Notes: generated by a model not told the origin, from the sequence alone. Numbered from the stretch's first letter, positions 2 to 52,125 are shown. The stretch: DNA of 64,000 nt from an uncultured Spirochaetia bacterium (GCA_964417645.1 CAYQIS010000003.1:19568-83567); one strand, 5' to 3'. Translations and numbers: made by a program.

Positions 2-469
2 CTTTCAGGTTCTTTTATGGTTTATAAAGGTTTTTTTTTGCAGGGCGCTTTAATAATTGCTTTTTCCAGTATTTTTGACATGGTGGACGGCGCTCTTGCA
101 CGAAGGACAAACCAAAAAAGCAGGTTCGGCGGTTTTCTTGACTCAACAACTGACAGGATAAGCGAAGCAGGTATTTTTTTGGCGGTTCTGGCGTTTTACC
201 TGAATGCCGGTGATAAAACAGCCGTAATCTTGTCATATCTGGCAATGTTTCTGGGATTTATGGTAAGCTACCTGCGTGCCCGGGCCGGAGGTCTTAAAAT
301 AGACTGCAGCAGGGGGCTTTTTACAAGACCCGAAAGAATGATTGTCATACTTTTGGGGCTGCTTACAGGATTTGTAAAACCCGCGCTGGCTGTGATTGTT
401 TTCGGTTCTTTGTTTACAGTTATTCAGCGGTTTATGCTTGTCAACGAACAGGCAAAAAATATAAAGTAA
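2..469 (+). CDS. pgsA: CDP-alcohol phosphatidyltransferase (phosphatidylinositol-phosphate synthase-like), 5' end outside window
   Basis: Motif DMVDGALAR...G..LDSTTDR; frame is open back to the window start; lies next to ino1 and patA/pimA-like genes. Confidence 0.85.
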
Positions 470-485
470 AAATGGAGGAAAAGAA

Positions 486-1565
486 ATGGCAAAAATCAGA
501 ATTGCAATCGCAGGAATGGGCAACTGCGCCTGGTCGCTTATTCAGGGCCTTGAGTTTTACAAAGATGTAAAGGACAGTGAATTTGTCCCCGGCTTAATGC
601 ACACAAACCTTGGCGGCTACAGGATAAGAGACATAGAACTTGTGGCTGCTTTCGACGTTGACAAAAACAAAGTGGGAAAAGACGCCAAGGATGCCCTGGA
701 ATCGCCGCCCAACAACACAATTGTTTTTGCAAAAATCAAAAAAACCGGCGTCAAAGTTATGAGAGGTCCGACTTTCGACGGTCTTGGCAAATATTACCGC
801 CAGGTTATTGAAGAATCCGATGAAGCGCCTGTTGATGTGGTTAAAGTGCTCCGAGATACAAAAGCCGACGTGCTTATCAGCTATCTTCCGGTTGGTTCCG
901 AAGAAGCCACAAAGTATTATGCACAGTGCGCAATAGACGCCAAAGTTGCTTTTGTCAACGCAATTCCGGTTTTCATCGCTTCAAATCCCGAATGGGCCGC
1001 AAAATTTAAAAAAGCCGGTGTTCCCGTAATCGGAGATGACATAAAATCCCAGGTGGGCGCCACAATAGTGCACCGCGTGCTTACAAAACTCTTCGGAGAC
1101 CGCGGGGTAAATATACTTCGCACATACCAGATAAATTTCGGCGGAAACATGGACTTCATGAACATGCTTGAAAGAGAAAGACTGCACAGCAAAAAAATAA
1201 GCAAAACAAACGCCGTGCTTTCACAGATGCAAAATGAAATTGACGACAAAGAAGACGTGCACGTGGGGCCGTCGGACCACATTCCGTGGCTTCTTGACAG
1301 AAAATGGTGCCATATAAGAATGGAAGGCGAAAACTTCGGCAAAGTTCCGCTTAATCTGGAATTAAAACTTGAAGTTTGGGATTCTCCAAACTCAGCCGGT
1401 GTTATTATTGACGCTTTGCGCTGCGCAAAAATTGCAAAAGACAGGAAGCTTGGAGGATATATTGAATGGCCTTCGGCTTATTTTATGAAAACGCCGCCTG
1501 TTCAGCATGATGACAATGAAGCTTATCAGATGGTTGAAAAATTTATACAAAACAAGAAAAAATAA
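486..1565 (+). CDS. ino1: myo-inositol-1-phosphate synthase (bacterial type)
   Basis: N-terminal GMGNCAWSL Rossmann motif; [19 protein letters not shown] and WDSPNSAG motifs; SD GGAGG. Confidence 0.95.
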
Positions 1566-2428
1566 TGTTTCTTAATTTTTTGGAAATACTGTTAAAAAAT
1601 ATCCCGCGAAAAGCGGGATATTTTTTTTTCAGGCTTGCAGGAAGGATTTTGTCTCATATACCTTCAAAAAGACAGCGCAATGTAAACGCCACTTTGTTTG
1701 CCGTAACAGGAATCAAAAATTATTCCTCTATACGCGCCAAAATTTACGAGACATATGCATCATATTATTATGAACTTTTTCTGGACAACAAAGAACTTTT
1801 AAAAAAAGTTGATTACTCGGCTTATGAAAACTCCGCAAAAACCATAAAAAGACTTTTGGAAAAATACGGAGGCTGCATTATGGTCAGTCTTCATTACGGG
1901 AACTGGGACCTTGCGGGCTCTTTTTTGGCGTCACTTTTTCCGGGACAAGTCACAGTTGTTGTTGAAGAGCTGTCGCCAAAAGTTTTTAAGTGGTTTACAA
2001 AAACAAGAAGTTCCTGGGGAATGAAAGTTCTTAAATCAACAGACTTAAAAGGTATGTTAAAGTCTCTTAAAGATAAAAATATACTTGTTCTTCTTGGAGA
2101 CAGGGACCTTGAAAAAAACGGCTATAAAATTGAAATGTTCGGCAGAAAAGCGCATCTGCCCTCGGGACCTGCAAAGCTTGCTTTAATGGCAAAAGTCCCT
2201 GTTGTGTTTTCCGTATTTGAGCGCATCAATGAAAACGGCTTTGAATTCAGGCCTTCCGGGGCTATAATATTAAACGATCCGCCGCTTGAACGCACGGAAG
2301 AAAACGCGCTTTTAATTACAAAAAAACTTGTATTAGAATTTGAAAATAAAATTAAATCAAAACCGGAAATGTGGTGTATGCTTCAGAATATATGGGCTGA
2401 AGAAAAAAAGCCCGTAAACAAAAAATAA
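1565..2428 (+). CDS. lipid acyltransferase, PatA/LpxL family (PIM acyltransferase-like)
   Basis: LHYGNWDLAG catalytic motif, LLGDRD, F-G...LPSGPA; TAATG coupling to ino1. Confidence 0.85.
   Translation: MFLNFLEILLKNIPRKAGYFFFRLAGRILSHIPSKRQRNVNATLFAVTGIKNYSSIRAKIYETYASYYYELFLDNKELLKKVDYSAYENSAKTIKRLLEKYGGCIMVSLHYGNWDLAGSFLASLFPGQVTVVVEELSPKVFKWFTKTRSSWGMKVLKSTDLKGMLKSLKDKNILVLLGDRDLEKNGYKIEMFGRKAHLPSGPAKLALMAKVPVVFSVFERINENGFEFRPSGAIILNDPPLERTEENALLITKKLVLEFENKIKSKPEMWCMLQNIWAEEKKPVNKK
1594..1629 (+). terminator. intrinsic-terminator-like hairpin inside the start of the acyltransferase CDS
   Basis: AAAAAATATCCCGC-GAAAA-GCGGGATATTTTTT (14-bp inverted repeat) ending in a run of 9 T. Confidence 0.6.
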
Positions 2429-2440
2429 AAAGGAAAAAAA

Positions 2441-3565
2441 ATGCCTTCATTCAAAAAAATTGCCATATGCACCCCTTATTATTATCCTCTTTTCGGAGGT
2501 GTTCAGGAATATGTTTACCATCTTAAACACGAATATCAAAAACTTGGTTTTACCGTAAAAGTAATTACGGGAAATTTCAGCAGCACTCCCTCACATGATG
2601 AAAATGACGTTATAAGAATAGGCAGAGGCATTCCTTTCATGGTCAACGGCTCCACAGGAAGAATAATATTAATCCGCAGGGGAGAAAAAGTCAGGCAGAT
2701 GCTTGAAAGGGAAAATTTTGACATAATTCATTTCCAGGAGCCTTTTGTTCCGTTTTTGTCACACGACATCATTAAATATTCCAAATCCGTTAACATAGCA
2801 ACTTTTCACGCAAATTTTGAAAGCAACATTTATTACAGATTTGGAAGACACTTTTTAAAACCTTTGTGGGAAAAACTTCACGGTAAAATAGCGGTATCTC
2901 CTTCGGCAAAAAGCAGCATAAGCAGGTACTTTAACGGAAGAGACATTGAAATAATACCCAACGGGGTTTCAACATCAAGGTTTAATCCGGAAGGAAAAAA
3001 AATCGCCAAATTTAACGATGACTTCACAAACATACTTTTTACGGGAAGAATAGAAAAAAGAAAAGGGCTTATTTATCTTATTAAAGCTTTTGCAATTCTG
3101 AAAAAGGATCACCCAAAAACAAGACTTATAGTTCTTGGAAAAGGACCGCTTCAAGAGCGTCTGAAAAAAATGGTTTTAAAAGAAAAAATATCCGATGTTC
3201 ATTTTGAAGGTTTCGTAAAACTTGAAGAATTGGCTGATTATTACAGAACGGCGCACATTTACTGTTCACCTGCTCTTTTTGGCGAAAGTTTTGGTATTGT
3301 CCTTCTTGAAGCAATGGCAAGCGGCATACCCGCTGTTGCTTTTAATATCAGCGGCTACAATGATGTTGTTTCCAATCTTGACGACGGACTTCTGGCAATA
3401 CCGCGGGATGTTCATGACCTGCACGAAAAACTTGATCTTCTTGTTTCTCATCCGGAAATAGCCAAAGAACTGGGACGCCGAGGTTATGAAAAAGCCCAAA
3501 AATTCAGATGGGATATTATAGCCGCAAAAAACATTCAGTTTTATGAAAAATTTTTTAGGAAATAA
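2441..3565 (+). CDS. pimA: GT4 glycosyltransferase, phosphatidylinositol alpha-mannosyltransferase-like
   Basis: PYYYPLFGGVQEYV, HFQEPFVP, ATFH, GRIEKRKG and ESFGIVLLEAMA motifs closely resemble PimA; operon context. Confidence 0.75.
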   Translation: MPSFKKIAICTPYYYPLFGGVQEYVYHLKHEYQKLGFTVKVITGNFSSTPSHDENDVIRIGRGIPFMVNGSTGRIILIRRGEKVRQMLERENFDIIHFQEPFVPFLSHDIIKYSKSVNIATFHANFESNIYYRFGRHFLKPLWEKLHGKIAVSPSAKSSISRYFNGRDIEIIPNGVSTSRFNPEGKKIAKFNDDFTNILFTGRIEKRKGLIYLIKAFAILKKDHPKTRLIVLGKGPLQERLKKMVLKEKISDVHFEGFVKLEELADYYRTAHIYCSPALFGESFGIVLLEAMASGIPAVAFNISGYNDVVSNLDDGLLAIPRDVHDLHEKLDLLVSHPEIAKELGRRGYEKAQKFRWDIIAAKNIQFYEKFFRK

Positions 3566-3570
3566 TCCAG

Positions 3571-4449
3571 ATGACATATACAACAATTAAATTTGCGGTT
3601 TTTTTAATAACCGCTTTGCCAATAAATTTCATATATTGGATTGCAATTAACATAACACATATATTCTTTTTTTTCTGGAAAGAGAAAAAGATCAACACTG
3701 AAAGCAATTACAAAACCATACTGAAAGATATTCTTGGCAGAGAACCTTTGATTGCAGAAATTAAAAATCTTGCTTTTCAAAACCGTGTTCATTACGGAAA
3801 ATTCAGCGCCGAATTTCTTTATCTTCCAAAGCTTGCAAAAAAGGATATTTTTCCGGATATAACAAATAAGGATTCCATAGACCTTGCGCTTAAAAGAGGC
3901 CGCGGCCTTATTATAGGCACACTGCACTTTTCAAACTGGGACATTGCCGGCATTGTAATATCAAAATATTGCAAAAATGTATGGGCGGTTGCCGATGATT
4001 TGGGCGGAGATTTTTCGCGGTTTGTACAGGAAACCCGCGGAAAATACGGCATAAATATAATACTTCCGAATAAAAATCTTAAAGATGTTTATCGCTGTCT
4101 TGAAAATAACGGTGTTTTAAATGTTCTTATAGACAGGCCGGTTTCTGCCGAAGATAAAAACGGCACCGTTATTGACTTTTTTGGAAAAAAAGCGCGGGTA
4201 ACATCTTTCGCCGCAAGACTTGCCCTTAAAACAGGCGCTGATGTTGCCGTGGGCTGGACAGTAAGAGAAAACGGCAAATTCACCGCCTTTTGTTCGGATA
4301 TAATTAAATATAATGCAACAGGCAACACATCGGAAGACATACGCAATCTTACGCAGCTTATGTTTAAAGAAGCCGAAAAAGCCGTCAGAAAAAATCCGGA
4401 ACAGTGGTACATGTTCAGAAAATTTTTTATTGACCAGGAGACAAAATGA
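3571..4449 (+). CDS. second PatA/LpxL-family acyltransferase
   Basis: LHFSNWDIAG, LIDRP, DFFG, PEQWYMF motifs. Confidence 0.85.
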   Translation: MTYTTIKFAVFLITALPINFIYWIAINITHIFFFFWKEKKINTESNYKTILKDILGREPLIAEIKNLAFQNRVHYGKFSAEFLYLPKLAKKDIFPDITNKDSIDLALKRGRGLIIGTLHFSNWDIAGIVISKYCKNVWAVADDLGGDFSRFVQETRGKYGINIILPNKNLKDVYRCLENNGVLNVLIDRPVSAEDKNGTVIDFFGKKARVTSFAARLALKTGADVAVGWTVRENGKFTAFCSDIIKYNATGNTSEDIRNLTQLMFKEAEKAVRKNPEQWYMFRKFFIDQETK

Positions 4450-5225
4450 AAAAAAGAAAATTTTTTACAGACAGCCCGCCCCACGGACACGCCGTAACAA
4501 AAAATAAAGAAAATATCCGAATAGATTCCTTAAAAGGATACGGAAAGGCGGATATTCATATTCATTCTTCCGCAAGCGATGCCGTTGTGACTCCGGAAGA
4601 AATAGTTGATTATGTTGAAAATAATACGGATCTTAACGTTATAGCAATTACCGACCACGATCAAATAAAAGGCGCAATACGCGCAAGAGAATATGCTCTT
4701 GAAAAAAAATACAATCTGCAGGTTATAGTAGGCGAAGAAGTAAGCACTTTAAAAGGTCATTTAATCGGCTTATTCATAAAAAAAAGAATTAAACGCTATA
4801 CAGGCTTAATTGACACGGTAAAATCAATTCACGAACAGGGTGGAATTGCAATAGTTCCTCATCCTCTTTCATGGCTTACAACATCAGTCGGTGAACAGGC
4901 TTTTAAGTCCGTTATTAAAAATAAAACTCCCGGAGTTTATTTCGACGCAGTTGAATTAATTAATCCGGCCATTGCTGGAAAAGTCACGGATGAACGAGCA
5001 CAAAAATTAAATACAATGCTTTGGAAATTACCCGTAACAGGGGGGTCGGACAGCCATTCATTGGACGGCATTGGCTCCGCTTTTACTTTATTCCCCGGAA
5101 AAACAGAAGAAGATTTACGCAAAGCCATACTTGAAGGCACAACTTTATACGGGGGGAAATACTGGAACTTCAGGGAGCATTGGGATTTATTCGTAAAAAA
5201 ATTCAAACGCTTCAAAGTTTTTTAA
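4446..5225 (+). CDS. PHP-domain phosphoesterase
   Basis: DIHIHS..SD, ITDHD, GEEVST, HP, GGSDSH metal motifs; ATGA overlap with the upstream gene. Confidence 0.9.
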   Translation: MKKRKFFTDSPPHGHAVTKNKENIRIDSLKGYGKADIHIHSSASDAVVTPEEIVDYVENNTDLNVIAITDHDQIKGAIRAREYALEKKYNLQVIVGEEVSTLKGHLIGLFIKKRIKRYTGLIDTVKSIHEQGGIAIVPHPLSWLTTSVGEQAFKSVIKNKTPGVYFDAVELINPAIAGKVTDERAQKLNTMLWKLPVTGGSDSHSLDGIGSAFTLFPGKTEEDLRKAILEGTTLYGGKYWNFREHWDLFVKKFKRFKVF

Positions 5226-5227: not shown

Positions 5228-5260
5228 AAAAAGCCCCGCGCGGAAAACGCGGGGCTTTTT
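5228..5260. terminator. bidirectional intrinsic terminator between convergent PHP and pckG
   Basis: AAAAAGCCCCGCG-CGGAAAA-CGCGGGGCTTTTT. Confidence 0.85.
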
Positions 5261-5276: not shown

Positions 5277-7127
5277 TTAAAATTGATCAGGTGTTACGTA
5301 ATCACCTTTCGCGGCCTTAAGGTCCAAAAGCCTTTTTTTCTGGGCTTCCAATTCTTCAAATACTTTTTCCGGTGTTCCCTTTACGCCTTTATAAACAGCG
5401 ATTATTCTGTCCATCTTGGCAACATTTTCATTAACACGTATCATAAACTGCTCTTTGTAATCCGCTTCGGTAAAATCCTTGTTCAAAAGCTCCTTAAACA
5501 GTTTTTTAAGTATGTCATACTTCGGTATTATCCCCAGGGGCGTTTTTATGCCGTCAATGTCTCCAGATGCCTTTAGTTCCATCCATTTCAGCCATACTCT
5601 TTTATCCTTTACGCCGTTTAGCCATTTGCCTTCCTTATTTCGCAGGAAATAATTTACACCGAATATTTTAGGCACTGTTTTTAAGCCTTTAGGAAATTCC
5701 AAATAACACTCAAGGTATTTTGCCATGGATATTGAAAGAAACTCCAAATTTGACATTAAATTAAACACTCTGTTGCCTTCCTGCCCAATTGTTGCGGCGG
5801 TTGTTTCGGATTCAAGGGATGCTCCCATTGTTATAACGCCATGGTCCCAATTAAACGCTTCGCATACAGGAACCGAGGTGTTGCTGTCACGGCCGCCGTA
5901 AATTATGCCTTTTAATTCAACACCTTTTTTATTGTGAAGATTTTTGTCGCAGTTTTTGAGTTTTTCAAGACTTATTGAATAGCGGGCATTTTTATGGGCA
6001 TAATCTATGGGTTTACCGGTTGCATCGGTTTTTCCTTTAAACCATTCTCCGGAATAGTTAATTCCCCTTTCAGGTTCTGGCTTTTTATCCCCAAGCCAGC
6101 GTGGAGTTCCGTTTTCATCAAGAACATTTCCAAATATAACATCACCGGGTGTTGTAAGGACCTTGTATATCAAAGGGTCGCCTGCTTCATTTATATCCTG
6201 AATAATTCCGAATATGCCGCGCTCAACATTTGCCGCATGAACTTTGCCGTCTATCTTACGGAGATATGCAAGATCATCTCCAACTATTGTTTCGCCTTCA
6301 ACCATTGCGGTTGAAGTTTTTCCGCACATTGAAGGATACGCTCCCGCAAAATAAGAAACTCTGCCTTTTGGTCCTTTAACCCCCATAATAAACATATGCT
6401 CCGCCAGCCAGCCCTCGCGGGAAGCTTTTTGTATAGCAAGTCTTAAAGCAAGTTTTTTAAAACCTACAGACTGCCCGGCATATTGTGTGTTGCAGCTGTA
6501 AACAGTTTCTGTTTTTAAATCCATATATACGCGGCGGTCGGCAACATTCTTACTGTTCATACGCTCGTCAACTTCACCTGTTGCATGTACAACCTTAAAA
6601 AAGCTTGAAGGTTTTGCTTTTTTAAAGGCCTCATATGCCTTCCTGTAAAGTATGTTTTCCGAATGAACCACATAATATGAATCCGTTATCTGAACTGCCG
6701 GAATGTAAAAAGGCGAATCCGTAGGACCAAGGGAATAAAAAAGCACAAACATATCGCGGCCTTTCATAATCCCTTTCATTTTTGAATAAACATCTTTAAG
6801 CCCTTCCTCCCGGTCAATTCCGTTTAAACCCTCGGGAGCTTCCCCGGGTTCAAAAAGAAATTTTGTGTTTTTAGGGTCTCTTCCCTGATCATAAATTCCG
6901 TCGTGATGTATTGTATGACCTTTTATCTTAAGAGCTTTTTCCTCACCCTTTTCTATGGCCATCTTTTTTGCCATTTCTTCATCAGCTTTGCTGTCATTAA
7001 ATACATATATGCCGTCAGGTTCCAGAAGTTCCGCATATTTTGCCACAAATTCCATAAGAACCGGATTTTTAAGGGCTTCAAGCCTTTTATAACTGTCTTT
7101 TCTGCATTTATTTTTAAGTAATTCCAT
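5277..7127 (-). CDS. pckG: GTP-dependent phosphoenolpyruvate carboxykinase
   Basis: YAG..GFKKLALR, WLAEHM, PSMCGKT, VGDDLA motifs; start moved to the ATG at 7127 behind SD GGAGG. Confidence 0.92.
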   Translation of the reverse strand: MELLKNKCRKDSYKRLEALKNPVLMEFVAKYAELLEPDGIYVFNDSKADEEMAKKMAIEKGEEKALKIKGHTIHHDGIYDQGRDPKNTKFLFEPGEAPEGLNGIDREEGLKDVYSKMKGIMKGRDMFVLFYSLGPTDSPFYIPAVQITDSYYVVHSENILYRKAYEAFKKAKPSSFFKVVHATGEVDERMNSKNVADRRVYMDLKTETVYSCNTQYAGQSVGFKKLALRLAIQKASREGWLAEHMFIMGVKGPKGRVSYFAGAYPSMCGKTSTAMVEGETIVGDDLAYLRKIDGKVHAANVERGIFGIIQDINEAGDPLIYKVLTTPGDVIFGNVLDENGTPRWLGDKKPEPERGINYSGEWFKGKTDATGKPIDYAHKNARYSISLEKLKNCDKNLHNKKGVELKGIIYGGRDSNTSVPVCEAFNWDHGVITMGASLESETTAATIGQEGNRVFNLMSNLEFLSISMAKYLECYLEFPKGLKTVPKIFGVNYFLRNKEGKWLNGVKDKRVWLKWMELKASGDIDGIKTPLGIIPKYDILKKLFKELLNKDFTEADYKEQFMIRVNENVAKMDRIIAVYKGVKGTPEKVFEELEAQKKRLLDLKAAKGDYVTPDQF

Positions 7128-7194
7128 AAATGATCCTCCTGTGGACAAAATTTAAAATATTATCCATTTTTTAATCCATTTTTCAAGGCAATAA

Positions 7195-7728
7195 TTATTC
7201 TTCTATACATGAAAGATCCCCTTCTTCCATATTATAAAAAAGAGGGGCAACAGCAAGGTTTGGATATCTTGTCCTTATCCTTTTAACTTCTGAAATTACA
7301 AAATCAAGTTCATCCCCTATTTCAAATATAGGCGCAAAACTGTCAAAATGCTGTTCGGCTGTTTTTTTCTGCCAGCCGGCTTTTACCAAGCCCTTTATAT
7401 AACTTTCTTTTCTGTTATGAAGACCGCACATACCGCAGTCATCATGGCCTATTATTGCAATTGCCTTAACTTTGCCAACAGCAACAGCATAAGAAATTAT
7501 AAAATCACTGTGTTTCATATTTCCGCCTGCGGTTCTTATTACATAAGCAAAATTATCCGGAACATGCAAAGCTTTTCTGTTGTCCATGCACATTCCAACC
7601 AATATTTCCGCTGATTCATAAGGTCTGCCTTCTTCGGCAAAATTATGATAACGTATCAGTGTTTCCACCGGTGTTCCGATATATTTTTTTGGAATATCGG
7701 TTTCTTTATGAATTTGTATTATTCTCAT
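7195..7728 (-). CDS. beta-class carbonic anhydrase
   Basis: CMDNR and GHDDCG zinc-ligand motifs, RTAGG. Confidence 0.88.
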   Translation of the reverse strand: MRIIQIHKETDIPKKYIGTPVETLIRYHNFAEEGRPYESAEILVGMCMDNRKALHVPDNFAYVIRTAGGNMKHSDFIISYAVAVGKVKAIAIIGHDDCGMCGLHNRKESYIKGLVKAGWQKKTAEQHFDSFAPIFEIGDELDFVISEVKRIRTRYPNLAVAPLFYNMEEGDLSCIEE

Positions 7729-7767
7729 AGCATAACGCTCCGTTTAATCAGTATTTTAGGGAATAAG

Positions 7768-7796
7768 AATATACAAATAAACACAGGATAAGTCAA
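7768..7796 (-). promoter_or_regulatory. sigma70-type promoter of the carbonic anhydrase gene
   Basis: TTGACT-N17-TATATT on the minus strand. Confidence 0.6.
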
Positions 7797-7800
7797 ACAT

Positions 7801-8349
7801 TTAGATTTTATTATTTTTTTTATCCATAAGTATATACTGAGAAGCTTCCCATAAAGTTTCGGTGGTAAAATCCGGCTTTTCCCTTTTTTCATAAAAATGC
7901 TTTGCCCCGTGCCCGGATAAAAGATATATTGTTTTTGTTCCGGCTTTTTTTCCCATATTTATATCATGGGGATGATCGCCTATTACCCAGGATTCTCCAA
8001 GATTTATCGGATTTTCTTCGCAAATTTTTCTGATAAAAAAATCAGAGGGTTTCCTGCATAAGCAATTAACATCTTTTGCATGAGGACAATGAAAAACGCG
8101 ATTTATTTTAATATTTTCTTTTTTAAGGCGCTCCAAAAAATATTTATTAAATTCCATATACTGTTCTTCCGAAAAAAAACCTTCTCCAATGCCTGCCTGA
8201 TTGGTTATCACATACAAATCATAATATTTTTGCAACAAAAAAAGAGCTTTTATTGACCCTTTAATAAATACAAGATCATCTTTTTTATAAATATATCCTC
8301 TGTCTTCAATTATTGTTCCGTCACGGTCCAAAAAAAGAGCGTTTTTCAT
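7801..8349 (-). CDS. HAD-IIIA phosphatase, GmhB/histidinol-phosphatase family
   Basis: FLDRDGTI, TNQAGI, CPH....C.CRKP, IGD..D motifs. Confidence 0.88.
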   Translation of the reverse strand: MKNALFLDRDGTIIEDRGYIYKKDDLVFIKGSIKALFLLQKYYDLYVITNQAGIGEGFFSEEQYMEFNKYFLERLKKENIKINRVFHCPHAKDVNCLCRKPSDFFIRKICEENPINLGESWVIGDHPHDINMGKKAGTKTIYLLSGHGAKHFYEKREKPDFTTETLWEASQYILMDKKNNKI

Positions 8350-9509
8350 ACTTTAATTTGCGATTTATATAAAATAAAAATTCCTGTAACAGAAGCAAGC
8401 AGTGTCATAAGAAAAACATTGCTGTAAGTTCCGCTTATATCCCTTATTAACCCGGAAATCAAAATACCCGTAAAAGCAGCCGCTCCATAAGCGGTGAAAA
8501 CAAAACCGTAAACTTTTCTGTAATTTTCAGATCCAAATATTTTTGCCGTGGCAACAGGAGCCAAAGCAAGCCATCCGCCAAGACTGAACCAAAGCATACA
8601 AAAAGAAATATAGAATAACACTTTCAAGCTGCCGTTAATCAGCATACCTGTTACAGATGCTGTTATTATTATGACAAAATTTAAAATTGCCGTGTTTTTA
8701 AATCCGGCTTTATCGGTTAACATTCCGAATAAAGGCCTGCCCAATCCGTTGAAAGCCGCAAATAATGACACTGCCGCGGCGGCTCCTGCAGGCGTAAGTC
8801 CGGCAAGTTCCTGCGCAAGCGGGCCTGAAATTCCTATTGCTGTAAGTCCTGACAATGCTCCAAGAGCATAAACAATCCATAAAATTCTGAAATTATCCTG
8901 AGAAATTAAATTTTTTAAATTTTCAATCAATGAAGCATTATCCGCAATATTATCCTCAATTTTTCTGTTTTTAATAAATATTCCAAGTATTGAAACAATA
9001 ACAAGAAAAAACACACCCGTTAATTTAAATGTATTGCTTAAACCGTATAATTCTATTGCTTTTTCAAGAACTGGTGCCGTAATTATTGCCGATAACCCGA
9101 ATCCGGACAAAACCAAACCTACGGCAAGACCGCGGTTTTTCCCATACCACTCCATTACCGCAGCCATTGGTATTCCATAAACTATTCCTATTCCGGCTCC
9201 CACAAAAAACCCGTAAAAAAAAGTTATCATCCATATGTTTTTGACAAATCCGGACAATGCCCATCCAAGACCTATGAATAAAGCCCCGATAAAAATTAAT
9301 TTTTTATGTTTTATTTTCCCTATATATTTTCCCGTAAAAAGCATTGTAATTGAATAAACAATAAGCAAAACCATAAAAGGAAGTCCGCTTTCAAACGCGC
9401 CTATTAACAGCTCGTTTTGTAAAGGCTTTCTGAAAATACTCCATGAATATACCGAACCAAGGCATAACATTATAAAAAATCCCGCGGGAACAATAAATGT
9501 TTTTGCCAT
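8346..9509 (-). CDS. MFS transporter, oxalate:formate antiporter (OFA)-like
   Basis: LGSVYSWSIF, GIGIVY..P, GLAVG..LSGFG, NGLGRPLFG, YGFVFTAYG; about 12 hydrophobic segments. Confidence 0.85.
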   Translation of the reverse strand: MAKTFIVPAGFFIMLCLGSVYSWSIFRKPLQNELLIGAFESGLPFMVLLIVYSITMLFTGKYIGKIKHKKLIFIGALFIGLGWALSGFVKNIWMITFFYGFFVGAGIGIVYGIPMAAVMEWYGKNRGLAVGLVLSGFGLSAIITAPVLEKAIELYGLSNTFKLTGVFFLVIVSILGIFIKNRKIEDNIADNASLIENLKNLISQDNFRILWIVYALGALSGLTAIGISGPLAQELAGLTPAGAAAAVSLFAAFNGLGRPLFGMLTDKAGFKNTAILNFVIIITASVTGMLINGSLKVLFYISFCMLWFSLGGWLALAPVATAKIFGSENYRKVYGFVFTAYGAAAFTGILISGLIRDISGTYSNVFLMTLLASVTGIFILYKSQIKV

Positions 9510-9524
9510 TCCCTGTTTTCCTCC

Positions 9525-11384
9525 TTAATTTAAAATACCTGAATAATCTTCAACACTTCCTTTTGATTCAAAACATTCTATTATTTCCATTCCTTTTTTG
9601 GACAGCTGCGGCGTTTTAAATTTTTTAAGCTCCTTGTCAAAAAATTCATACAGCATTTTTTCTCCGAATTGAAATGCTTCTTTACCGACTTCAGGCTGAA
9701 GACTTACATCTATAAGAAAATCAGGAATTGATATTCCCTCAACTTTAAGTTCTTTTCTTATATAACCAAGAAGCGGGGTTCCGGCTTTTTTTAATTCTGA
9801 TTCTTCAAATTTTCTTCCGCCTCTTCTTGCAAGATATTCCCTTACAAACCACTGCGGCATAAAACCTGTTTTCCAGGCGCCTACATATTGATTCGGAAAA
9901 AGAACATTACACGTGTTATTATTTTTTATAAATTGTTCCAGAAGCATGTTGGCGTGTTTAACCGGACTCCCTGTTAAAAACGGACCGTAAGTTCCGATTC
10001 CTTCACTGCTCATTCCTTCGGAACTTATTATGCTTGGATTATCATGTCCGCGGGGCGCAACCAGTCTCCATAACCAAGCCAATGCGGGAGGTAATATGTG
10101 AAAAAAACCTATTATTCCATAAGAAGGATTTTTGGAAGTGCAAGGAGGCGTTCTTATGCCAAAACTTCTGTAGTCTATTGCCGTTTCGGAGTTCTCAATA
10201 TTTGGAATAAGCTCTCTGGGAAAAATCACTCTTGGATTGGGGCATCTTTTTGAAGGCGCGTCTTCAATATGTTCCCAAATAAGGCATGTTGATCCTGCAA
10301 CAGCCTGAATATTAAGAAATATCATGGGCTTTGACGGATGTATGCACATTTTTTCAAAATGAGGATTCATTCCGTAATGTTCAATATGATTTACTCTTAC
10401 AAACCAAGCATTTTCCGCGTCCATTACATGAAGTTTTCCGTCATTTTTTTGTATTGAAGTGTGACAAATTGACATATCATCGGTAACAGGATGTATTTCA
10501 CATTCATTTATAAGTGACGTTTCTATCACCTTTCCGTCAATTATATTCTCGGCAATTCTCATTTTGCTGTTTTCGGTGTGCTCCATATATTCGTTCATCT
10601 CGCTTTTTCCGCCGCCGCTTGCGCCTTCATGAAGTATTGTTATTGAATTATCATAAGGGGTAATAAGTTTTGTTGAAGACGCATGAAGAGTAAGCCATCC
10701 TTCTTTTTCCCCTATGGAAAGAAGCGCCCCATATATGCCTTTTTTTGCGCTTGGCCCCGGATAAAGATTATAGGAAAAAATTTCATAAAGATTTTCTGTT
10801 CTGTTATGAACCACCACCTGTTTTCCTGAAAAATGTGTATGTCTGAACACAGGGGCCAAATATATTATTATTTTTGGAGAAAATTCACGGTTTAAATCCG
10901 CTTCATTCATTAAATTCTGTAAATCAGCAACGGCCATGGCAAAAAAAGCGCAGTTAAGAGGACCAACAAAAAGAGACTGAATTTTTACCGGATCCCTTCC
11001 CGTTATAAAAGGCATTACAATTACATCTGTTTCAGAAAACCATTTAATTGTATCTTTTCTAAAATCAGGAAAATCCATTTTAAACACATCTTTAAATCTT
11101 GGTTTGTCGGATTCAAATTCATCCCCTACAAATGTACAATTTGGATCCCTTCTTCTCATATATGGTTCCTGATAATTTACCGCAACACCGTTTTTACATA
11201 GTGTAACATCGGCTTCCTTAAACTTTTTACCCTGTGATGTTTCGGAAAAAACTTCAAACTGATTCAAACCGTTTCCTGTTGCAAGTTTTATAAGGTCTTC
11301 CCTGCTTTTTGGAAAAACGCAGGATTTTGATTTAAGCAGTGCATCCTTTAATTCTTTTGGTATGTTCCAGTCATTTATACTCAT
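9525..11384 (-). CDS. DUF4914-family protein (PEPCK-like fold)
   Basis: NYQEPYMRRRDP, P-loop HEGASGGGKSE, TDDM, AENAWF, CPNPR motifs; SD GGAGG. Confidence 0.8.
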   Translation of the reverse strand: MSINDWNIPKELKDALLKSKSCVFPKSREDLIKLATGNGLNQFEVFSETSQGKKFKEADVTLCKNGVAVNYQEPYMRRRDPNCTFVGDEFESDKPRFKDVFKMDFPDFRKDTIKWFSETDVIVMPFITGRDPVKIQSLFVGPLNCAFFAMAVADLQNLMNEADLNREFSPKIIIYLAPVFRHTHFSGKQVVVHNRTENLYEIFSYNLYPGPSAKKGIYGALLSIGEKEGWLTLHASSTKLITPYDNSITILHEGASGGGKSEMNEYMEHTENSKMRIAENIIDGKVIETSLINECEIHPVTDDMSICHTSIQKNDGKLHVMDAENAWFVRVNHIEHYGMNPHFEKMCIHPSKPMIFLNIQAVAGSTCLIWEHIEDAPSKRCPNPRVIFPRELIPNIENSETAIDYRSFGIRTPPCTSKNPSYGIIGFFHILPPALAWLWRLVAPRGHDNPSIISSEGMSSEGIGTYGPFLTGSPVKHANMLLEQFIKNNNTCNVLFPNQYVGAWKTGFMPQWFVREYLARRGGRKFEESELKKAGTPLLGYIRKELKVEGISIPDFLIDVSLQPEVGKEAFQFGEKMLYEFFDKELKKFKTPQLSKKGMEIIECFESKGSVEDYSGILN

Positions 11385-13687: not shown

Positions 13688-14884
13688 TTACTTCTTTTTT
13701 CTTTTTTCAAGTTCTTCTTTTCTTTCTTTTTTTATTTCCGCTTCTTCTTTTTTATACTGTTCCTTAACTTCGCCTTCCGTTTCTTTTTCATCTTCCTTAA
13801 CATCCATTATTTTCTCATGATATTCTCGTTTCCATTCATCCTTGGTTTCTTTTACTTTATTTTTCATAACAGGGGCTGTTTTTGTCTCCTTTTTTTCATG
13901 TTTGCCGTAATCATATACTTTTTCTGAATCTTTTATGCATTCAGGTTCTTTTTCATTTACCCGCGTTTTTTGTGCAATTACCGTCTTCACTGGAATTTGT
14001 GTATAAGTTGCGCCTGGCTGCAAAGGCGTATCAGAAGGCTTAACAGGCACAGGCGTACATGTTTCCTGAATTGAAAGCGGAGTATTCGTATATTCAGGCA
14101 ATATCCGGGTACTTGTTGAAATCGGAATATCAACAGCTGTGTTTGTCCCTGAAGCTTGAGCGGATTTTAATATAGCTGTTGGTGATGCAGCAATATAAAT
14201 TATATACGGCGTTTGAGTTGCCGTTGCAGTAACAATTATATATTGAATTTTATTTTCCTGTGACGTTGCCTGCCCGGCAGGCAAAGGAAATGCATTATTT
14301 AGCTGAGGAACCGGGGTTGGAGAAAAAACAGCTGTTAATGTTGCCGTTGGTGTATAAACATATTTTCGCGTTATGTATTTTTCACCGTTTATATATTTGC
14401 CTTCTTCCATAAGCTGGCCGCCTTCATAATATTCTTTGTATTGTCCTGAAAGTTTCCCTTCCGAATACCAATATTCACTTTTTAAATTTCCGTTTTGATA
14501 ATATTCTTTATATTCGCCTTCAAGGATATCGTTTTTATAAGTGTATTGTTTCCAGATTACCCCGTTTATAAAATAAACATTTTGTATAAAATTAAACTGA
14601 TTGTTCAATATTATTGCTTCCGATTTCAGATTATTTCCGTTTTCATAATATTCCCTGGCAATACCATTTATGTTCTCGCCTGTTTTTATAAAGCCTTTAC
14701 CTTCTTGAGCTGTCCAAACAGCAATTTGGACCTGATTTTTATAAAAAATATATTTACCCGAGCTGTAAACATAAACAATTCCGGGAACGGCCCCTTTATA
14801 GGGGCAATCTTTATATTCAGGAGTGCATGATATAAATAAAAAAATTGTTAAAATCAAAAACAAAGAAAGTATATTTTTTTTCAT
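13688..14884 (-). CDS. lipoprotein with MORN-variant (YwqK-like) repeats, Thr/Pro-rich linker and charged C-terminus
   Basis: Lipobox FISC; G.YKEYY.NG.L repeats; TPTAT/TP-rich segment. Confidence 0.75.
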   Translation of the reverse strand: MKKNILSLFLILTIFLFISCTPEYKDCPYKGAVPGIVYVYSSGKYIFYKNQVQIAVWTAQEGKGFIKTGENINGIAREYYENGNNLKSEAIILNNQFNFIQNVYFINGVIWKQYTYKNDILEGEYKEYYQNGNLKSEYWYSEGKLSGQYKEYYEGGQLMEEGKYINGEKYITRKYVYTPTATLTAVFSPTPVPQLNNAFPLPAGQATSQENKIQYIIVTATATQTPYIIYIAASPTAILKSAQASGTNTAVDIPISTSTRILPEYTNTPLSIQETCTPVPVKPSDTPLQPGATYTQIPVKTVIAQKTRVNEKEPECIKDSEKVYDYGKHEKKETKTAPVMKNKVKETKDEWKREYHEKIMDVKEDEKETEGEVKEQYKKEEAEIKKERKEELEKRKKK

Positions 14885-15324
14885 CTCCTGCCTCCTTTCT
14901 TTGTTTTAAAATTTTTTTTTGATATAACATTTCCGTTTATGTCATATTCCGTAAATGTTCCATAAGGCTCTCCGTTGACATAATAGCCCTCTTTCTTAAG
15001 CATACCTGTTTCATAATATTCAAAATAATTATAATTAAGTTTGTTGTCTTTATAAATCATTTCCGCCATCAAAGAACCGTCGGGATAAAATTTTCTTACA
15101 ATTCCGTTTATGGCAATTCCTTCCCGCTTTATGCTTCCGTCTCTTCCTATTATCCATGTCGCCACTTCTTTTTTTCCCTCATAAAATATAATCTTATCCT
15201 CTGCTTCCTGCATCCATGTTCCCTGATATTTTAAATAAGGTTTTGGCGGACAGTTATATACCGTATATCTGCAGGATGAAAATGCCAATAAAATCATAAT
15301 TAAAACAAAAAATATTCTTGCCAT
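14881..15324 (-). CDS. small lipoprotein with MORN-variant repeats
   Basis: Lipobox FSSC; FYPDGSL / YYETGML repeats; start moved to 15324 behind GGAGG. Confidence 0.7.
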   Translation of the reverse strand: MARIFFVLIMILLAFSSCRYTVYNCPPKPYLKYQGTWMQEAEDKIIFYEGKKEVATWIIGRDGSIKREGIAINGIVRKFYPDGSLMAEMIYKDNKLNYNYFEYYETGMLKKEGYYVNGEPYGTFTEYDINGNVISKKNFKTKKGGRR

Positions 15325-15346
15325 ACATCCTCCGATTATTTTATTT

Positions 15347-16540
15347 TCAATCAATGCTTTTTCTTAGTACCGAAAAGGATTCTATGTTGCCTGTTTTAAA
15401 CTTTATTTTATAGACGGATTTTCCTGATGTTTTGGTTACTTCAATGCCGCTTTCATCAAAAATACCCGTCACTTCGTCATTTTTCTTTCCTTTTGGCGAA
15501 AAAATTTCAATTTTGTCTCCTAATCTTATTACATTTCTCACAATAACTTCGGCTTCTTTAACTCCTCCTGCGATTGTATGTCCAAGGTAAACAGAATCTG
15601 CGCTATAATCGGATGTGGCGTAATTTTGCCTTATTTCTCCGTCATCAAAATAAAAACCTGTTGTATATTCCCTGTGGGAAATCTTATTTAATTCGCTTTT
15701 TAAAATTTCATCGGCATTAAAGCCGGCATCGATGCATTTTCTGTATGCATTGGTTACAGCCGCAACATAATGAATTCCTTTCATTCTTCCTTCTATCTTA
15801 AAACTTTCTATACCGGCCTCATAAAGTTCGCCGAGTTTTTCCAGAAGATTCAAATCTTTTGAATTAAATATATATGTCCCTCTTTCATCTTCAACTACGG
15901 GAATTTTTTCTCCGGGTCTTTTGGCTTCAATCAATTCATAGCTCCATCTGCACCCTTGCGTGCATTCTCCGCGGTTTGCATCACGTCCTGTCATATAATT
16001 GCTTATAAGGCATCTGCCCGAATATGATATGCACATTGCACCGTGAACAAAAGCTTCAAGTTCAATATCAGGAAGTTTTTCTTTTATTTCCTTTATTTCT
16101 TTAACATTTAATTCTCTCGCCAAAATAACCCTTTTTGCGCCCAATTCTTTCCACATCTTAACTTCCATATAGTTAAGATTATTTGCCTGAACAGAGACAT
16201 GTATCGGCAGACTTATTTTTTCTTCCCTTATTATTTTAAGCACTCCCAAATCTGAAATAATAATTGCATCGGGCTTTATTAAGTCAAGAAACTTTAAATG
16301 CTGTCTTATTTTTGGAATATCCGAATTGCGTGGAAAAATATTTACTGTCATATATATTTTTTTTTTGAATGAATGAGTATATTCAACAGCTTCTTTGAGT
16401 TCTTCTTCCGTAAAATTATCCGAAAAATTGCGAAGCCCTGTACCCTTGCCAGAAGCATAAACCGCATCAGCTCCAAAAGCCAAAGCAAATTTTAATTTTT
16501 CAAAGTTTCCCGCGGGAGAAAGCAATTCCGGTTTTGACAT
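15347..16540 (-). CDS. U32 peptidase family protein (TrhP-like tRNA hydroxylation)
   Basis: PELLSPAG, GADAVY, HGAMCISYSGRC, KIEGR motifs. Confidence 0.88.
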   Translation of the reverse strand: MSKPELLSPAGNFEKLKFALAFGADAVYASGKGTGLRNFSDNFTEEELKEAVEYTHSFKKKIYMTVNIFPRNSDIPKIRQHLKFLDLIKPDAIIISDLGVLKIIREEKISLPIHVSVQANNLNYMEVKMWKELGAKRVILARELNVKEIKEIKEKLPDIELEAFVHGAMCISYSGRCLISNYMTGRDANRGECTQGCRWSYELIEAKRPGEKIPVVEDERGTYIFNSKDLNLLEKLGELYEAGIESFKIEGRMKGIHYVAAVTNAYRKCIDAGFNADEILKSELNKISHREYTTGFYFDDGEIRQNYATSDYSADSVYLGHTIAGGVKEAEVIVRNVIRLGDKIEIFSPKGKKNDEVTGIFDESGIEVTKTSGKSVYKIKFKTGNIESFSVLRKSID

Positions 16541-25542: not shown

Positions 25543-28486
<2,944 letters not shown>

Positions 28487-28487
<1 letters not shown>

Positions 28488-29896: not shown

Positions 29897-29910
29897 AAAA
29901 ACACACCTTC

Positions 29911-32577: not shown

Positions 32578-32589
32578 GACGCCTCCTTG

Positions 32590-52104: not shown

Positions 52105-52125
52105 AGTATTTCCACCGCCTTTTTT

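What the first reader, a model, noticed from the sequence alone, without database searches (positions are those of the whole stretch)
2..5225. Actinobacterial-style phosphatidylinositol-mannoside (PIM) operon in an apparently diderm, non-actinobacterial genome
Seen: tightly coupled pgsA-ino1-acyltransferase-GT4-acyltransferase-PHP. Known: pgsA-patA-pimA is the core PIM locus of mycobacteria, and Ino1 supplies inositol-1-phosphate. The same window holds beta-barrel OMPs, TolB-like proteins, gmhB and a GT9 remnant. Inference: this lineage makes inositol glycolipids, possibly alongside or replacing LPS components.
Basis: partly seen in the sequence, partly recalled or inferred. Interest (0 to 1): 0.7.

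Follow-up and report, generated by a model that had tools for sequence, protein, structure and literature searches.

The report
Inositol glycolipid operon outside Actinobacteria
A candidate-phylum bacterium (Goldbacteria/FCPU426-like) carries a conserved six-gene operon that most likely makes phosphatidylinositol and turns it into an acylated sugar-inositol lipid like the early mycobacterial PIMs. Two of its genes are candidates for enzymes still missing from the mycobacterial pathway.

Summary
The operon is real. It runs PIP synthase (cut by the window edge; 198 aa in sister contigs), Ino1, acyltransferase AT1, a GT4, acyltransferase AT2 and a PHP phosphoesterase. Gaps are -4 to +16 nt and a hairpin terminator follows.

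- **GT4:** its family profile hits PimA at 282 bits, against 128 for the next solved structure. It keeps 9 of 10 mutagenesis-critical PimA residues but not the guanine contacts, so the sugar donor is uncertain.
- **Acyltransferases:** both lie nearer PatA than LpxM.
- **Conservation:** order and flanking housekeeping synteny are conserved in MAGs labelled Goldbacteria or FCPU426. The genome is therefore not actinobacterial.
- **Wider distribution:** the same six families recur, reordered, in clusters whose named members are Chloroflexota. This PHP subfamily sat inside such a cluster in all 13 genomes where it was examined.
- **Best reading:** Ins-3-P → PIP → PI → glycosyl-PI → acylated glycosyl-PI. 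I infer that PHP is the PIP phosphatase and AT2 a second acyltransferase. Both are reported as unidentified in mycobacteria.
- **Envelope:** one predicted outer-membrane beta-barrel supports a diderm cell. No GT9 was found, and the "TolB" and "gmhB" calls fall below family thresholds. Nothing supports replacement of LPS.

This is a new variant of a known pathway.

The parts
2..469 (+). PIP synthase (CDP-alcohol phosphatidyltransferase). The window holds the C-terminal 155 of 198 aa. It is the first gene of the operon.
   Evidence: Pfam CDP-OH_P_transf. The full-length copy from L032 scores 150 bits on NCBIfam PIPSynth (cut-off 170) and 147.5 on archaetidylinositol-phosphate synthase. The DxxDGxxAR...GxxxDxxxD motif is visible in the sequence. 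Several hydrophobic segments are present.
486..1565 (+). myo-inositol-1-phosphate (inositol-3-phosphate) synthase, Ino1/MIPS
   Evidence: Pfam Inos-1-P_synth 118 bits. TIGR03450 573 bits over the full length (cut-off 638). It is 77-78% identical in L001-L005.
1565..2428 (+). AT1: a PatA-like acyltransferase with no predicted membrane anchor
   Evidence: Pfam Lip_A_acyltrans. The best NCBIfam hit is the PIM acyltransferase model at 137.7 bits, against 71.9 for the best LpxL model. PDB hits are PatA only, E 7e-17. H110 and D179 correspond to PatA H126 and E200. No TM segment.
2441..3565 (+). PimA-like GT4 glycosyltransferase (GT-B)
   Evidence: PDB search: PimA 142 bits over the full length, next hit 80 bits. 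Family profile: PimA 282 bits, next hit 128 bits. Nine of 10 mutagenesis-critical PimA residues and the EX7E motif are kept; guanine contacts are not.
3571..4449 (+). AT2: a second acyltransferase of the HtrB/PatA family with an N-terminal hydrophobic anchor
   Evidence: Pfam Lip_A_acyltrans. NCBIfam scores are a tie: 99.7 (an LpxL-type model) against 97.2 (PatA). PDB: PatA 38.5 bits, LpxM 30.7 bits. H119 and D188 are present. A TM-like segment spans residues 6-29. It is the reciprocal best match of the first acyltransferase in the Chloroflexota-type clusters.
4446..5225 (+). PHP-family metal-dependent phosphoesterase, the candidate PIP phosphatase. Its start overlaps the AT2 stop by 4 nt.
   Evidence: Pfam PHP and PHP_C. 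Invariant metal ligands are H38, H40, D45, H71, E98, H105, H139, D202 and H204. The AF2 model has pLDDT 92.8, and its best fold match is the TM0559 PHP phosphoesterase. The subfamily lay inside an inositol-lipid cluster in all 13 genomes where it was examined.
5233..5260 (.). Hairpin terminator shared with the convergent PEPCK gene
   Evidence: The sequence GCCCCGCG-CGGAAAA-CGCGGGGC-TTTTT, preceded by A7, is read directly.

Best explanation
The six genes form one operon for an inositol glycolipid, a variant of the early PIM pathway.

1. Ino1 converts glucose-6-P to inositol-3-P.
2. The PIP synthase joins it to CDP-diacylglycerol to give phosphatidylinositol phosphate (PIP).
3. A phosphatase removes the inositol phosphate to give PI. 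I assign this step to the PHP phosphoesterase (inferred, about 0.5).
4. The PimA-like GT4 glycosylates the inositol of PI at the cytoplasmic face. The acceptor is well supported. The donor may be GDP-mannose, at about even odds.
5. AT1, the PatA-like enzyme, acylates the sugar.
6. The membrane-anchored AT2 adds a further acyl chain, perhaps on the inositol as in Ac2PIM (inferred, about 0.35).

The expected product is a tri- or tetra-acylated PIM1-like lipid. The family assignments, operon structure and conservation are shown. All substrates, the order of steps and the location of the product are inferred.
For: - **Gene identities:**
- **Tight coupling and terminator:**
- **PimA residues:** Y9, Q18, N63, R68, H118, R196, E199, R201 and E274 are kept and nearly invariant in 48 clade members.
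- **Acyltransferases:** the joint profile prefers PatA (123 bits) to LpxM (92 bits). On clade HMMs PatA outscores LpxM for every group. The catalytic His and acidic pair is kept.
- **Vertical conservation:** the same six-gene order is found in L001-L005, with flanking synteny nadD-proA-hemN-lepB | operon | HSP20-DUF1844-metallophos-U32-recR-dnaX.
- **Wider distribution:** the same families recur in other orders in L029, L030, L035, L038, L039 and L040.
- **PHP:** it has a complete metal-ligand set, a confident PHP fold and a conserved basic amphipathic C-terminal helix suited to membrane binding.
- **Open steps in the literature:** PI synthesis through PIPS needs a phosphatase that is 'yet-unidentified' in mycobacteria (PMC6506517, PMC9385802). 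The second PIM acyltransferase is 'as yet unknown' (PMC13223929).
Against: - No biochemistry or lipid data exist for this lineage.
- The equivalog models are all missed: PIPS 150 against 170, Ino1 573 against 638, AT1 138 against 209.
- PimA's guanine contacts P14, D252, D253 and K256 are F, K, L and L here, and are not conserved across the clade. A mannoside is therefore unproven.
- The nearest structural relatives of PHP are uncharacterised proteins or nucleases/nucleotidases (TM0559, RNase AM, Cv1693).
- One related cluster (L036) lacks PHP, and L007 lacks both PHP and the acyltransferases.
- No second mannosyltransferase and no GDP-mannose genes are in the window.
- The deep acyltransferase relationships are weakly resolved.
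Confidence: 0.7

Rival explanations
1. The pathway is the same, but the GT4 uses a donor other than GDP-mannose (a UDP- or ADP-sugar). The product would then be an acylated glycosyl-PI that is not a mannoside.
For: Four of the six guanine-contact residues of PimA are changed in the window protein. D253 and K256 are not conserved in the 48-member clade. The ESF...I 'mannose' contacts lie in the EX7E region, which from general knowledge is common to GT4 enzymes with other donors.
Against: PimA is by far the closest characterised relative over its full length. The beta-phosphate and sugar-side residues are identical. JGI's pipeline names the homologues PI alpha-mannosyltransferase, though this is only an automatic annotation.
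Confidence: 0.25
2. PHP is not the PIP phosphatase. It serves another role in the pathway, such as hydrolysing a nucleotide or nucleotide-sugar by-product. That would parallel the MutT/Nudix GDP-mannose hydrolase Rv2609c of the mycobacterial operon. PIP would then be dephosphorylated by an enzyme encoded elsewhere.
For: The closest solved PHP proteins act on nucleic acids or nucleotides (RNase AM, Cv1693 3',5'-bisphosphate nucleotidase) or are uncharacterised. The mycobacterial operon carries a nucleotide-sugar hydrolase at the matching end (PMC3229680). Cluster L036 works without an adjacent PHP. A PAP2 phosphatase lies about 4 kb upstream in L032.
Against: The pathway has exactly one unassigned chemical step, a phosphomonoester hydrolysis, and exactly one unassigned enzyme, a phosphoesterase. 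PHP lay in the cluster in all 13 genomes examined, often with its stop overlapping the next gene's start. It has a conserved basic amphipathic tail. The upstream PAP2 best matches undecaprenyl-diphosphatases and has a signal peptide.
Confidence: 0.2
3. The two acyltransferases are late lipid A acyltransferases (LpxL/LpxM type). The locus would then feed LPS assembly, or make an LPS substitute for the outer membrane.
For: Both carry the Pfam 'lipid A biosynthesis acyltransferase' domain. AT2 ties between an LpxL-type model and PatA and has an LpxL-like N-terminal anchor. A predicted OM barrel is in the window.
Against: Every LpxL/LpxM NCBIfam model is missed by a wide margin. Profiles favour PatA over LpxM. 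The acyltransferases are always embedded between Ino1/PIPS and the PimA-like GT4. The same pair occurs in Chloroflexota-type clusters. No lpx, kdo or GT9 gene is in the window.
Confidence: 0.03
4. The operon makes a soluble inositol compound. Candidates are a mycothiol-like GlcNAc-inositol (an MshA-type GT plus a phosphatase) or di-myo-inositol phosphate.
For: MshA uses inositol-phosphate, is a GT4, and gives weak hits here. DIPP synthases belong to the same CDP-alcohol transferase superfamily (57-64 bits).
Against: The GT4 profile scores 282 bits on PimA against about 106 on MshA. The transferase scores 150 bits on PIPS against 64 on IPCT/DIPPS, and there is no cytidylyltransferase domain. 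Two lipid-type acyltransferases would have no role.
Confidence: 0.03

Closest known systems
Early PIM locus of Corynebacterineae: Rv2614c(thrS)-Rv2613c-pgsA1(Rv2612c)-Rv2611c(patA)-pimA(Rv2610c)-Rv2609c (PMC3229680)
   Same: A PIP synthase, a PatA-family acyltransferase and a PimA-family GT4 sit together in one operon. The predicted chemistry is PI to glycosyl-PI to acyl-glycosyl-PI at the cytoplasmic face of the membrane.
   Different: - This locus has two acyltransferases instead of one.
- ino1 is inside the operon.
- A PHP phosphoesterase takes the place of the MutT/Nudix and HIT-like genes.
- The host is a low-GC candidate-phylum bacterium with a predicted outer-membrane barrel.
- The GT4 is 28% identical to PimA and lacks its guanine contacts.
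Chloroflexota-type inositol-lipid clusters (L029 GCA_023382375.1, L030 GCA_014360825.1, L035, L038-L040). I found them undescribed in the searched literature.
   Same: The same six protein families are present. Both acyltransferase paralogues correspond as reciprocal best profile matches (AT2 with the first acyltransferase, AT1 with the second). The PHP subfamily is the same, at 43-49% identity.
   Different: - The gene order differs: Ino1-AT-AT-PHP-GT4-PIPS, or PIPS-Ino1-AT-AT-PHP-GT4.
- The proteins are only 22-64% identical.
- The host lineage differs.
Bacteroides thetaiotaomicron inositol lipid cluster BT_1522-BT_1526 (PMC9246714)
   Same: MIPS plus PIPS plus a dedicated PIP phosphatase are clustered. 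PI is made through a PIP intermediate in a Gram-negative bacterium.
   Different: - The Bacteroides phosphatase belongs to the PgpA family, whereas this one is PHP.
- The Bacteroides cluster leads to inositol phosphoceramide.
- It has no PimA-like GT4 and no PatA-like acyltransferases.
LpxL/LpxM late lipid A acyltransferases
   Same: They share the Lip_A_acyltrans fold and the His plus block-3 acidic residue. AT2 also has an N-terminal hydrophobic anchor.
   Different: - All equivalog cut-offs are missed by a wide margin.
- LpxM scores below PatA on every clade profile.
- There is no lipid A gene context.

Membership tests
PimA (GT4 phosphatidylinositol alpha-1,2-mannosyltransferase) | GT-B GT4 architecture (Glyco_transf_4 plus Glycos_transf_1 domains) | tested here: met
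   Pfam scores of 83 and 142 bits.
PimA (GT4 phosphatidylinositol alpha-1,2-mannosyltransferase) | Closer to PimA than to any other characterised GT4, over the full length | tested here: met
   Single sequence: 142 against 80 bits. Family profile: 282 bits for PimA, against 128 for Tll1590, 106 for MshA and 98 for PimB'. No tree with broad reference sampling was built.
PimA (GT4 phosphatidylinositol alpha-1,2-mannosyltransferase) | Residues shown by mutagenesis to be critical (Y9, Q18, Y62, N63, R68, H118, R196, E199, R201, E274), plus beta-phosphate binders G16 and K202 and the EX7E motif | tested here: met
   Nine of 10 are kept (Y62 is V). G16, K202, E274 and E282 are kept. They are nearly invariant in 48 clade members.
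PimA (GT4 phosphatidylinositol alpha-1,2-mannosyltransferase) | Guanine-binding residues for GDP-Man (P14, L194, V226, V251, D252, D253; K256 on the ribose/guanine) | tested here: not met
   P14 is F, L194 is T, D252 is K, D253 is L and K256 is L. Only V251 is kept, and V226 is L.
PimA (GT4 phosphatidylinositol alpha-1,2-mannosyltransferase) | Transfers mannose from GDP-Man to O-2 of the inositol of PI | not testable with these tools
   This needs an enzyme assay.
PatA (PIM acyltransferase) | HtrB-family fold with catalytic His (H126) and a block-3 acidic residue (E200) | tested here: met
   AT1 has H110 and D179. AT2 has H119 and D188. Both pairs are invariant in 18 sequences.
PatA (PIM acyltransferase) | Reaches the NCBIfam equivalog cut-off (NF005919, 209 bits) | tested here: not met
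   AT1 scores 137.7 and AT2 97.2. The Chloroflexota acyltransferases score 171 and 181.
PatA (PIM acyltransferase) | Closer to PatA than to LpxL/LpxM | tested here: met
   AT1 scores 138 against 72 bits on NCBIfam, and its PDB hits are PatA only. AT2 alone is a near tie (99.7 against 97.2). However, PDB gives PatA 38.5 against LpxM 30.7, and the AT2-clade HMM gives PatA 57 against LpxM 41.
PatA (PIM acyltransferase) | Adjacent to pgsA1 and pimA | tested here: met
   Both acyltransferases flank the GT4 within the operon.
LpxL/LpxM late lipid A acyltransferases | Reaches an LpxL/LpxM family cut-off and sits in a lipid A/Kdo gene context | tested here: not met
   The best scores are 72 to 100 bits against cut-offs of 248 to 540. 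No lpx or kdo gene is in the window.
Bacterial PIP synthase (PgsA1-type) | CDP-alcohol motif DxxDGxxAR...GxxxDxxxD, with a best match to PIP/AIP synthase models | tested here: met
   The motif reads [10 protein letters not shown]...GGFLDSTTD. PIPSynth scores 150 and AIP synthase 147.5, against 39.5 for pgsA.
Bacterial PIP synthase (PgsA1-type) | Reaches the equivalog cut-off (170 bits) | tested here: not met
   150 bits for the full-length protein from L032.
myo-inositol-1-phosphate synthase | Inos-1-P_synth domain with a full-length match to the bacterial Ino1 model | tested here: met
   Pfam 118 bits, above the cut-off of 27. TIGR03450 gives 573 bits over positions 1-355 of 355, just under its 638 equivalog cut-off.
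PHP trinuclear-metal phosphoesterases | HxH, D/H, H, E, H, H and DxH metal ligands on a PHP (beta/alpha)7 barrel | tested here: met
   H38, H40, D45, H71, E98, H105, H139, D202 and H204 are invariant in 43 sequences. The AF2 model has pLDDT 92.8, and Foldseek matches TM0559 at E 2e-11 with TM 0.71-0.73.
PIP phosphatase (functional class; the only characterised bacterial example is the PgpA-family BT_1525) | Homology to BT_1525/PgpA | tested here: not met
   No PgpA domain occurs in the operon. PHP would be a non-homologous replacement.
PIP phosphatase (functional class; the only characterised bacterial example is the PgpA-family BT_1525) | Dephosphorylates PIP to PI | not testable with these tools
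   The only support is gene association in 13 of 13 genomes examined, plus a membrane-type amphipathic tail.
Corynebacterineae early-PIM operon | Composition thrS, Rv2613c, pgsA1, one acyltransferase, pimA and a MutT hydrolase, in an actinobacterial host | tested here: not met
   The composition differs: ino1, a second acyltransferase and PHP are present, and there is no Nudix or HIT gene. The host is non-actinobacterial (PMC3229680).

The most novel reading that the evidence does not exclude
This PHP subfamily is the long-missing, non-PgpA type of bacterial phosphatidylinositol-phosphate phosphatase. AT2, together with its Chloroflexota orthologue, is the missing second acyltransferase that makes Ac2-type glycosyl-PI. 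The six-gene set would then be a complete, portable module for a tetra-acylated inositol glycolipid. That module would be older and more widespread than the actinobacterial PIM pathway, and it operates here in a cell with an outer membrane.
Probability: 0.25. Interest if true: 0.8.

Novelty: new variant of a known kind. Interest (0 to 1): 0.6.

Why it matters
PIMs and their early enzymes (PgsA1, PimA, PatA) are treated as a hallmark of Actinobacteria and as drug targets in tuberculosis. Two steps of that pathway still lack an enzyme. The PIP phosphatase is 'yet-unidentified' (PMC6506517, PMC9385802). The second acyltransferase is 'as yet unknown' (PMC13223929, 2026).

This locus, with its relatives in Goldbacteria/FCPU426-like and Chloroflexota genomes, offers one specific candidate for each step, tied to the pathway by conserved gene clustering. 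Both candidates can be tested with ordinary expression and assay work.

The locus also shows that a PIM-like module lies at a conserved, vertically inherited chromosomal position in a deep, uncultured lineage that appears to have an outer membrane. That widens the known range of bacterial inositol glycolipids. I found no description of such a cluster in the searched literature, which does not prove that none exists.

Tried and rejected
- **Lipid A reading of the acyltransferases.** Rejected on NCBIfam, PDB and clade-HMM scores, and on gene context.
- **Neighbour-joining tree of the acyltransferases with PatA and LpxM.** The topology placed AT1 next to PatA. Deep nodes were poorly supported, and my bootstrap values for rooted clades are unreliable. 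I rely on the HMM cross-scores instead.
- **Soluble-product readings (mycothiol-like, DIP).** Rejected on the PimA versus MshA and PIPS versus DIPPS scores, and on the lack of a cytidylyltransferase.
- **Diderm markers in the window.** Pfam and NCBIfam gave no BamA, Lpx, true TolB or GT9. Only the structure prediction of 40074-41357 gave positive evidence.
- **Marker-gene taxonomy (GyrB, DnaA).** Not done. The three large protein searches went to GT4, PHP and the OMP candidate. Placement rests on the names of homologues and on extended synteny.
- **Promoter and terminator scans.** These gave nothing useful. The terminator after PHP was read directly from the sequence.
- **Literature searches.** Searches for PIM outside Actinobacteria, for Chloroflexi with PIM, and for PHP with PIP phosphatase found nothing relevant. 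The Goldbacteria genome paper mentions neither inositol nor the envelope.
- **PAP2 phosphatase upstream in L032.** Considered as an alternative PIP phosphatase. It is on the opposite strand, about 4 kb away, carries a signal peptide, and best matches undecaprenyl-diphosphatases.

Full report
**Observation**

The + strand of window 2-5225 holds six consecutive ORFs.

| Coordinates | Product |
|---|---|
| 2-469 | CDP-alcohol phosphatidyltransferase, running off the 5' edge |
| 486-1565 | Inositol-1-phosphate synthase |
| 1565-2428 | Lip_A_acyltrans protein (AT1) |
| 2441-3565 | GT4 glycosyltransferase |
| 3571-4449 | Second Lip_A_acyltrans protein (AT2) |
| 4446-5225 | PHP/PHP_C phosphoesterase |

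Junction gaps are +16, -1, +12, +5 and -4 nt. Purine-rich stretches sit before the Ino1, GT4 and PHP starts. Immediately after PHP lies the hairpin GCCCCGCG-CGGAAAA-CGCGGGGC-TTTTT (5233-5260), shared with the convergent PEPCK gene.

Contigs of the same organism, 100% identical to the window (L032, L033), extend past the window edge. The first gene is 198 aa and begins the operon, divergent from a signal-peptidase gene. The unit therefore has exactly six genes.

**Gene identities**

- **First gene.** This is a PIP synthase, not PgsA proper. The full-length protein scores 150 bits on NCBIfam PIPSynth and 147.5 on archaetidylinositol-phosphate synthase, against 39.5 on pgsA. It carries the CDP-alcohol motif, although the equivalog cut-off of 170 is missed.
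- **Ino1.** It matches TIGR03450 end to end at 573 bits (cut-off 638).
- **GT4.** Its only strong solved relative is PimA: 142 bits over the full length, against 80 for the next hit. With an 18-sequence family profile, PimA scores 282 bits, against 128 (Tll1590), 106 (MshA) and 98 (PimB').
  - I mapped the PimA residues listed in PMC9202250 onto the alignment.
  - Nine of the ten mutagenesis-critical residues are kept: Y9, Q18, N63, R68, H118, R196, E199, R201 and E274. Only Y62 is changed, to V.
  - The beta-phosphate binders and the EX7E motif are also kept. These positions are almost invariant in 48 clade members.
  - The guanine contacts are not kept: P14, D252, D253 and K256 become F, K, L and L. 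The PI-type acceptor is therefore well supported, while GDP-mannose as donor is not established.
- **AT1.** It scores 137.7 bits on the PatA equivalog, against 71.9 for the best LpxL model. It hits only PatA in the PDB.
- **AT2.** It ties between the two kinds of model on NCBIfam (99.7 against 97.2). It still prefers PatA (38.5 bits) to LpxM (30.7 bits) in the PDB.
- **Both acyltransferases.** Each keeps the catalytic His and the block-3 acidic residue that PatA uses (H126/E200; PMC4792965). AT2 has an N-terminal hydrophobic segment (residues 6-29), and AT1 has none.
- **PHP protein.** It has all nine metal ligands invariant across 43 homologues. Its model is confident (pLDDT 92.8). The best fold match is the uncharacterised Thermotoga PHP phosphoesterase TM0559, followed by RNase AM and related proteins.

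**Lineage and conservation**

- GT4 homologues fall into a 60-84% identity group, then drop to 47% or less. Named members of the first group are Ca. Goldbacteria/Goldiibacteriota, plus one labelled Spirochaetia. PHP homologues show the same pattern.
- In the species-representative genome collection, six loci hold close relatives (L001-L006). Their titles read Goldbacteria, FCPU426, and some evidently loose labels.
- Five of the six have the same six-gene order, and L006 has AT1-GT4-AT2-PHP. Identities are 77-78% for Ino1, 62-72% for GT4, 61-75% for PHP and 40-50% for the acyltransferases.
- The flanks are syntenic too: nadD-proA-hemN-lepB before the operon, and HSP20-DUF1844-metallophosphatase-U32-recR-dnaX after it, at 37-66% identity. 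The window differs by a PEPCK-to-DUF4914 block inserted after the operon.
- The operon therefore sits at a conserved, vertically inherited position in a deep lineage.
- The genome is not actinobacterial. Its GC content is 36%. I did not run a marker-gene placement.

**A wider gene set**

I followed PHP and GT4 homologues from the second identity tier. Named members of that tier are Chloroflexota, Limnocylindrales and Dehalococcoidales. This gave the following clusters:

| Locus | Gene order |
|---|---|
| L029, L039 | Ino1-AT-AT-PHP-GT4-PIPS |
| L030 | AT-AT-PHP-GT4-PIPS |
| L035 | PIPS-Ino1-AT-AT-PHP-GT4 |
| L038 | Ino1-AT-AT-PHP-GT4 |
| L040 | The same set, with inserted genes |
| L036 | Ino1-AT-AT-GT4-PIPS, without PHP |

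- Every PHP homologue I located lay inside such a cluster: 13 genomes, counting the window. It was often translationally coupled to its neighbour.
- Clade HMM cross-scores show that both acyltransferase paralogues are shared. AT2 pairs with the first Chloroflexota acyltransferase (about 190-210 bits, against 120-150 on the other groups). AT1 pairs more weakly with the second.
- PatA outscores LpxM on all four profiles.
- PHP and the pair of acyltransferases are therefore components of the pathway, not passengers.

**Mechanism**

The shown parts are the family assignments, the operon structure and the conservation. The inferred pathway is as follows.

1. Ino1 makes inositol-3-P.
2. PIPS condenses it with CDP-DAG to give PIP.
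3. A phosphatase gives PI.
4. The PimA-like GT4 glycosylates the inositol.
5. AT1 acylates the sugar, as PatA does.
6. AT2 adds another acyl chain.

The pathway has one chemical step without an enzyme, hydrolysis of the PIP phosphomonoester. The operon has one enzyme without a step, a metal phosphoesterase. Its conserved C-terminal basic amphipathic helix (HWDLFVKKFKRFKVF) would suit work at a membrane surface. I therefore assign PHP to PIP dephosphorylation, at about 0.5.

The literature I could read calls the PIP phosphatase 'yet-unidentified' in mycobacteria (PMC6506517, PMC9385802). In Bacteroides it is assigned to a PgpA-family protein (PMC9246714). The second PIM acyltransferase is still 'as yet unknown' (PMC13223929).

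**Envelope and LPS**

- No curated diderm marker is in the window.
- The PD40 proteins score far below TolB cut-offs. The HAD-IIIA phosphatase is below GmhB cut-offs. No GT9 was found.
- The orphan secreted protein at 40074-41357 has only ten homologues. It folds confidently (pLDDT 83.7) into a large beta-sheet protein. Its best structural matches are all outer-membrane barrels: Bdellovibrio OmpA, FadL/TodX and TonB-dependent receptors. This supports an outer membrane.
- Nothing links the operon to LPS.
- Its presence in Chloroflexota-type genomes suggests a cytoplasmic-membrane lipid, as for mycobacterial PIMs. This rests on general knowledge that Chloroflexota lack LPS.

**Comparison and verdict**

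The locus works like the early PIM pathway, but it is not the Corynebacterineae operon. That operon has one acyltransferase, a MutT hydrolase and a HIT-like gene, and no ino1 or PHP (PMC3229680).

It is best described as a new variant of a known kind: a six-family inositol-glycolipid module shared by Goldbacteria/FCPU426-like and Chloroflexota lineages. I found no description of it in the searched literature.

The main uncertainties are these:

- the identity of the sugar;
- the substrate of PHP;
- the acylation site of AT2;
- whether the lineage also makes LPS.

Noticed in passing
window 40074-41357 (-), with 39518-40012 and 38690-39451 (-): This is an orphan secreted 427-aa protein with no Pfam or NCBIfam hit and only 10 homologues in the 5.8-billion-protein set. 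It is predicted to be an outer-membrane beta-barrel. The adjacent paralogue is split into two ORFs that match its N- and C-terminal parts, which suggests a frameshifted pseudogene or an assembly error.
   Followed up: partly
window 19968-20669 and 20666-22519 (-): A GT2 resembling polyprenyl-phosphate sugar synthases (AglJ/PpgS/ArnC-like) overlaps by 4 nt a 617-aa protein. That protein has only a weak match to a Leptospira 'putative glycosyltransferase' family. The pair looks like a lipid-linked-sugar donor plus a membrane transferase. It could in principle extend a glycolipid on the outer face, but there is no evidence tying it to the inositol operon.
   Followed up: no
window 25543-35088 (-): gyrB (873 aa) and gyrA are separated by two large genes. 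One is a NosD-like beta-helix protein (28487-29896) and the other an 888-aa protein with an HATPase_c domain (29911-32577). A DUF721-like small ORF follows gyrB.
   Followed up: no
window 36200-38050 and about 52100-52400: dnaA (36472-37812) is flanked by exact DnaA boxes at 36387 and 37843, plus near-matches at 36415 and 37909. However, the switch of gene strand and the cumulative GC-skew minimum lie about 14 kb away, between 52104 and 52374 next to queA. DnaA-box counts over the whole window are not above chance (26 found against 17.6 expected).
   Followed up: partly
window 5277-11384 (-): PEPCK(GTP), a beta-carbonic-anhydrase-like protein, a HAD-IIIA phosphatase, a lactate/oxalate-formate-type MFS transporter and DUF4914 form a block. 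It is inserted between the operon and HSP20 relative to the FCPU426 and other related MAGs. L001 shares only PEPCK and the carbonic anhydrase.
   Followed up: partly
window 13688-15354 and 55948-57066 (-): Three proteins carry MORN-variant repeats. There are also two adenylate/guanylate cyclases (23147-24214, 60482-61984), a Crp-family regulator (24863-25528) and an HD-GYP-like HD_5 protein (59208-60485). Together they suggest dense cyclic-nucleotide signalling.
   Followed up: no
L040 6786-9042; L030 10494-11950: In Chloroflexota-type clusters, foreign genes sit inside the inositol-lipid cluster without breaking it up. L040 has a DNA methyltransferase plus an unknown ORF between PHP and GT4. 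L030 has an MBL-fold hydrolase and a second, divergent CDP-alcohol transferase after PIPS.
   Followed up: no
L032 658-1422 (-): A signal-peptide PAP2 phosphatase lies about 4 kb upstream of the operon in the same organism. Its best matches are undecaprenyl-diphosphatases, with a weak LpxE match. It was considered and set aside as an alternative PIP phosphatase.
   Followed up: partly
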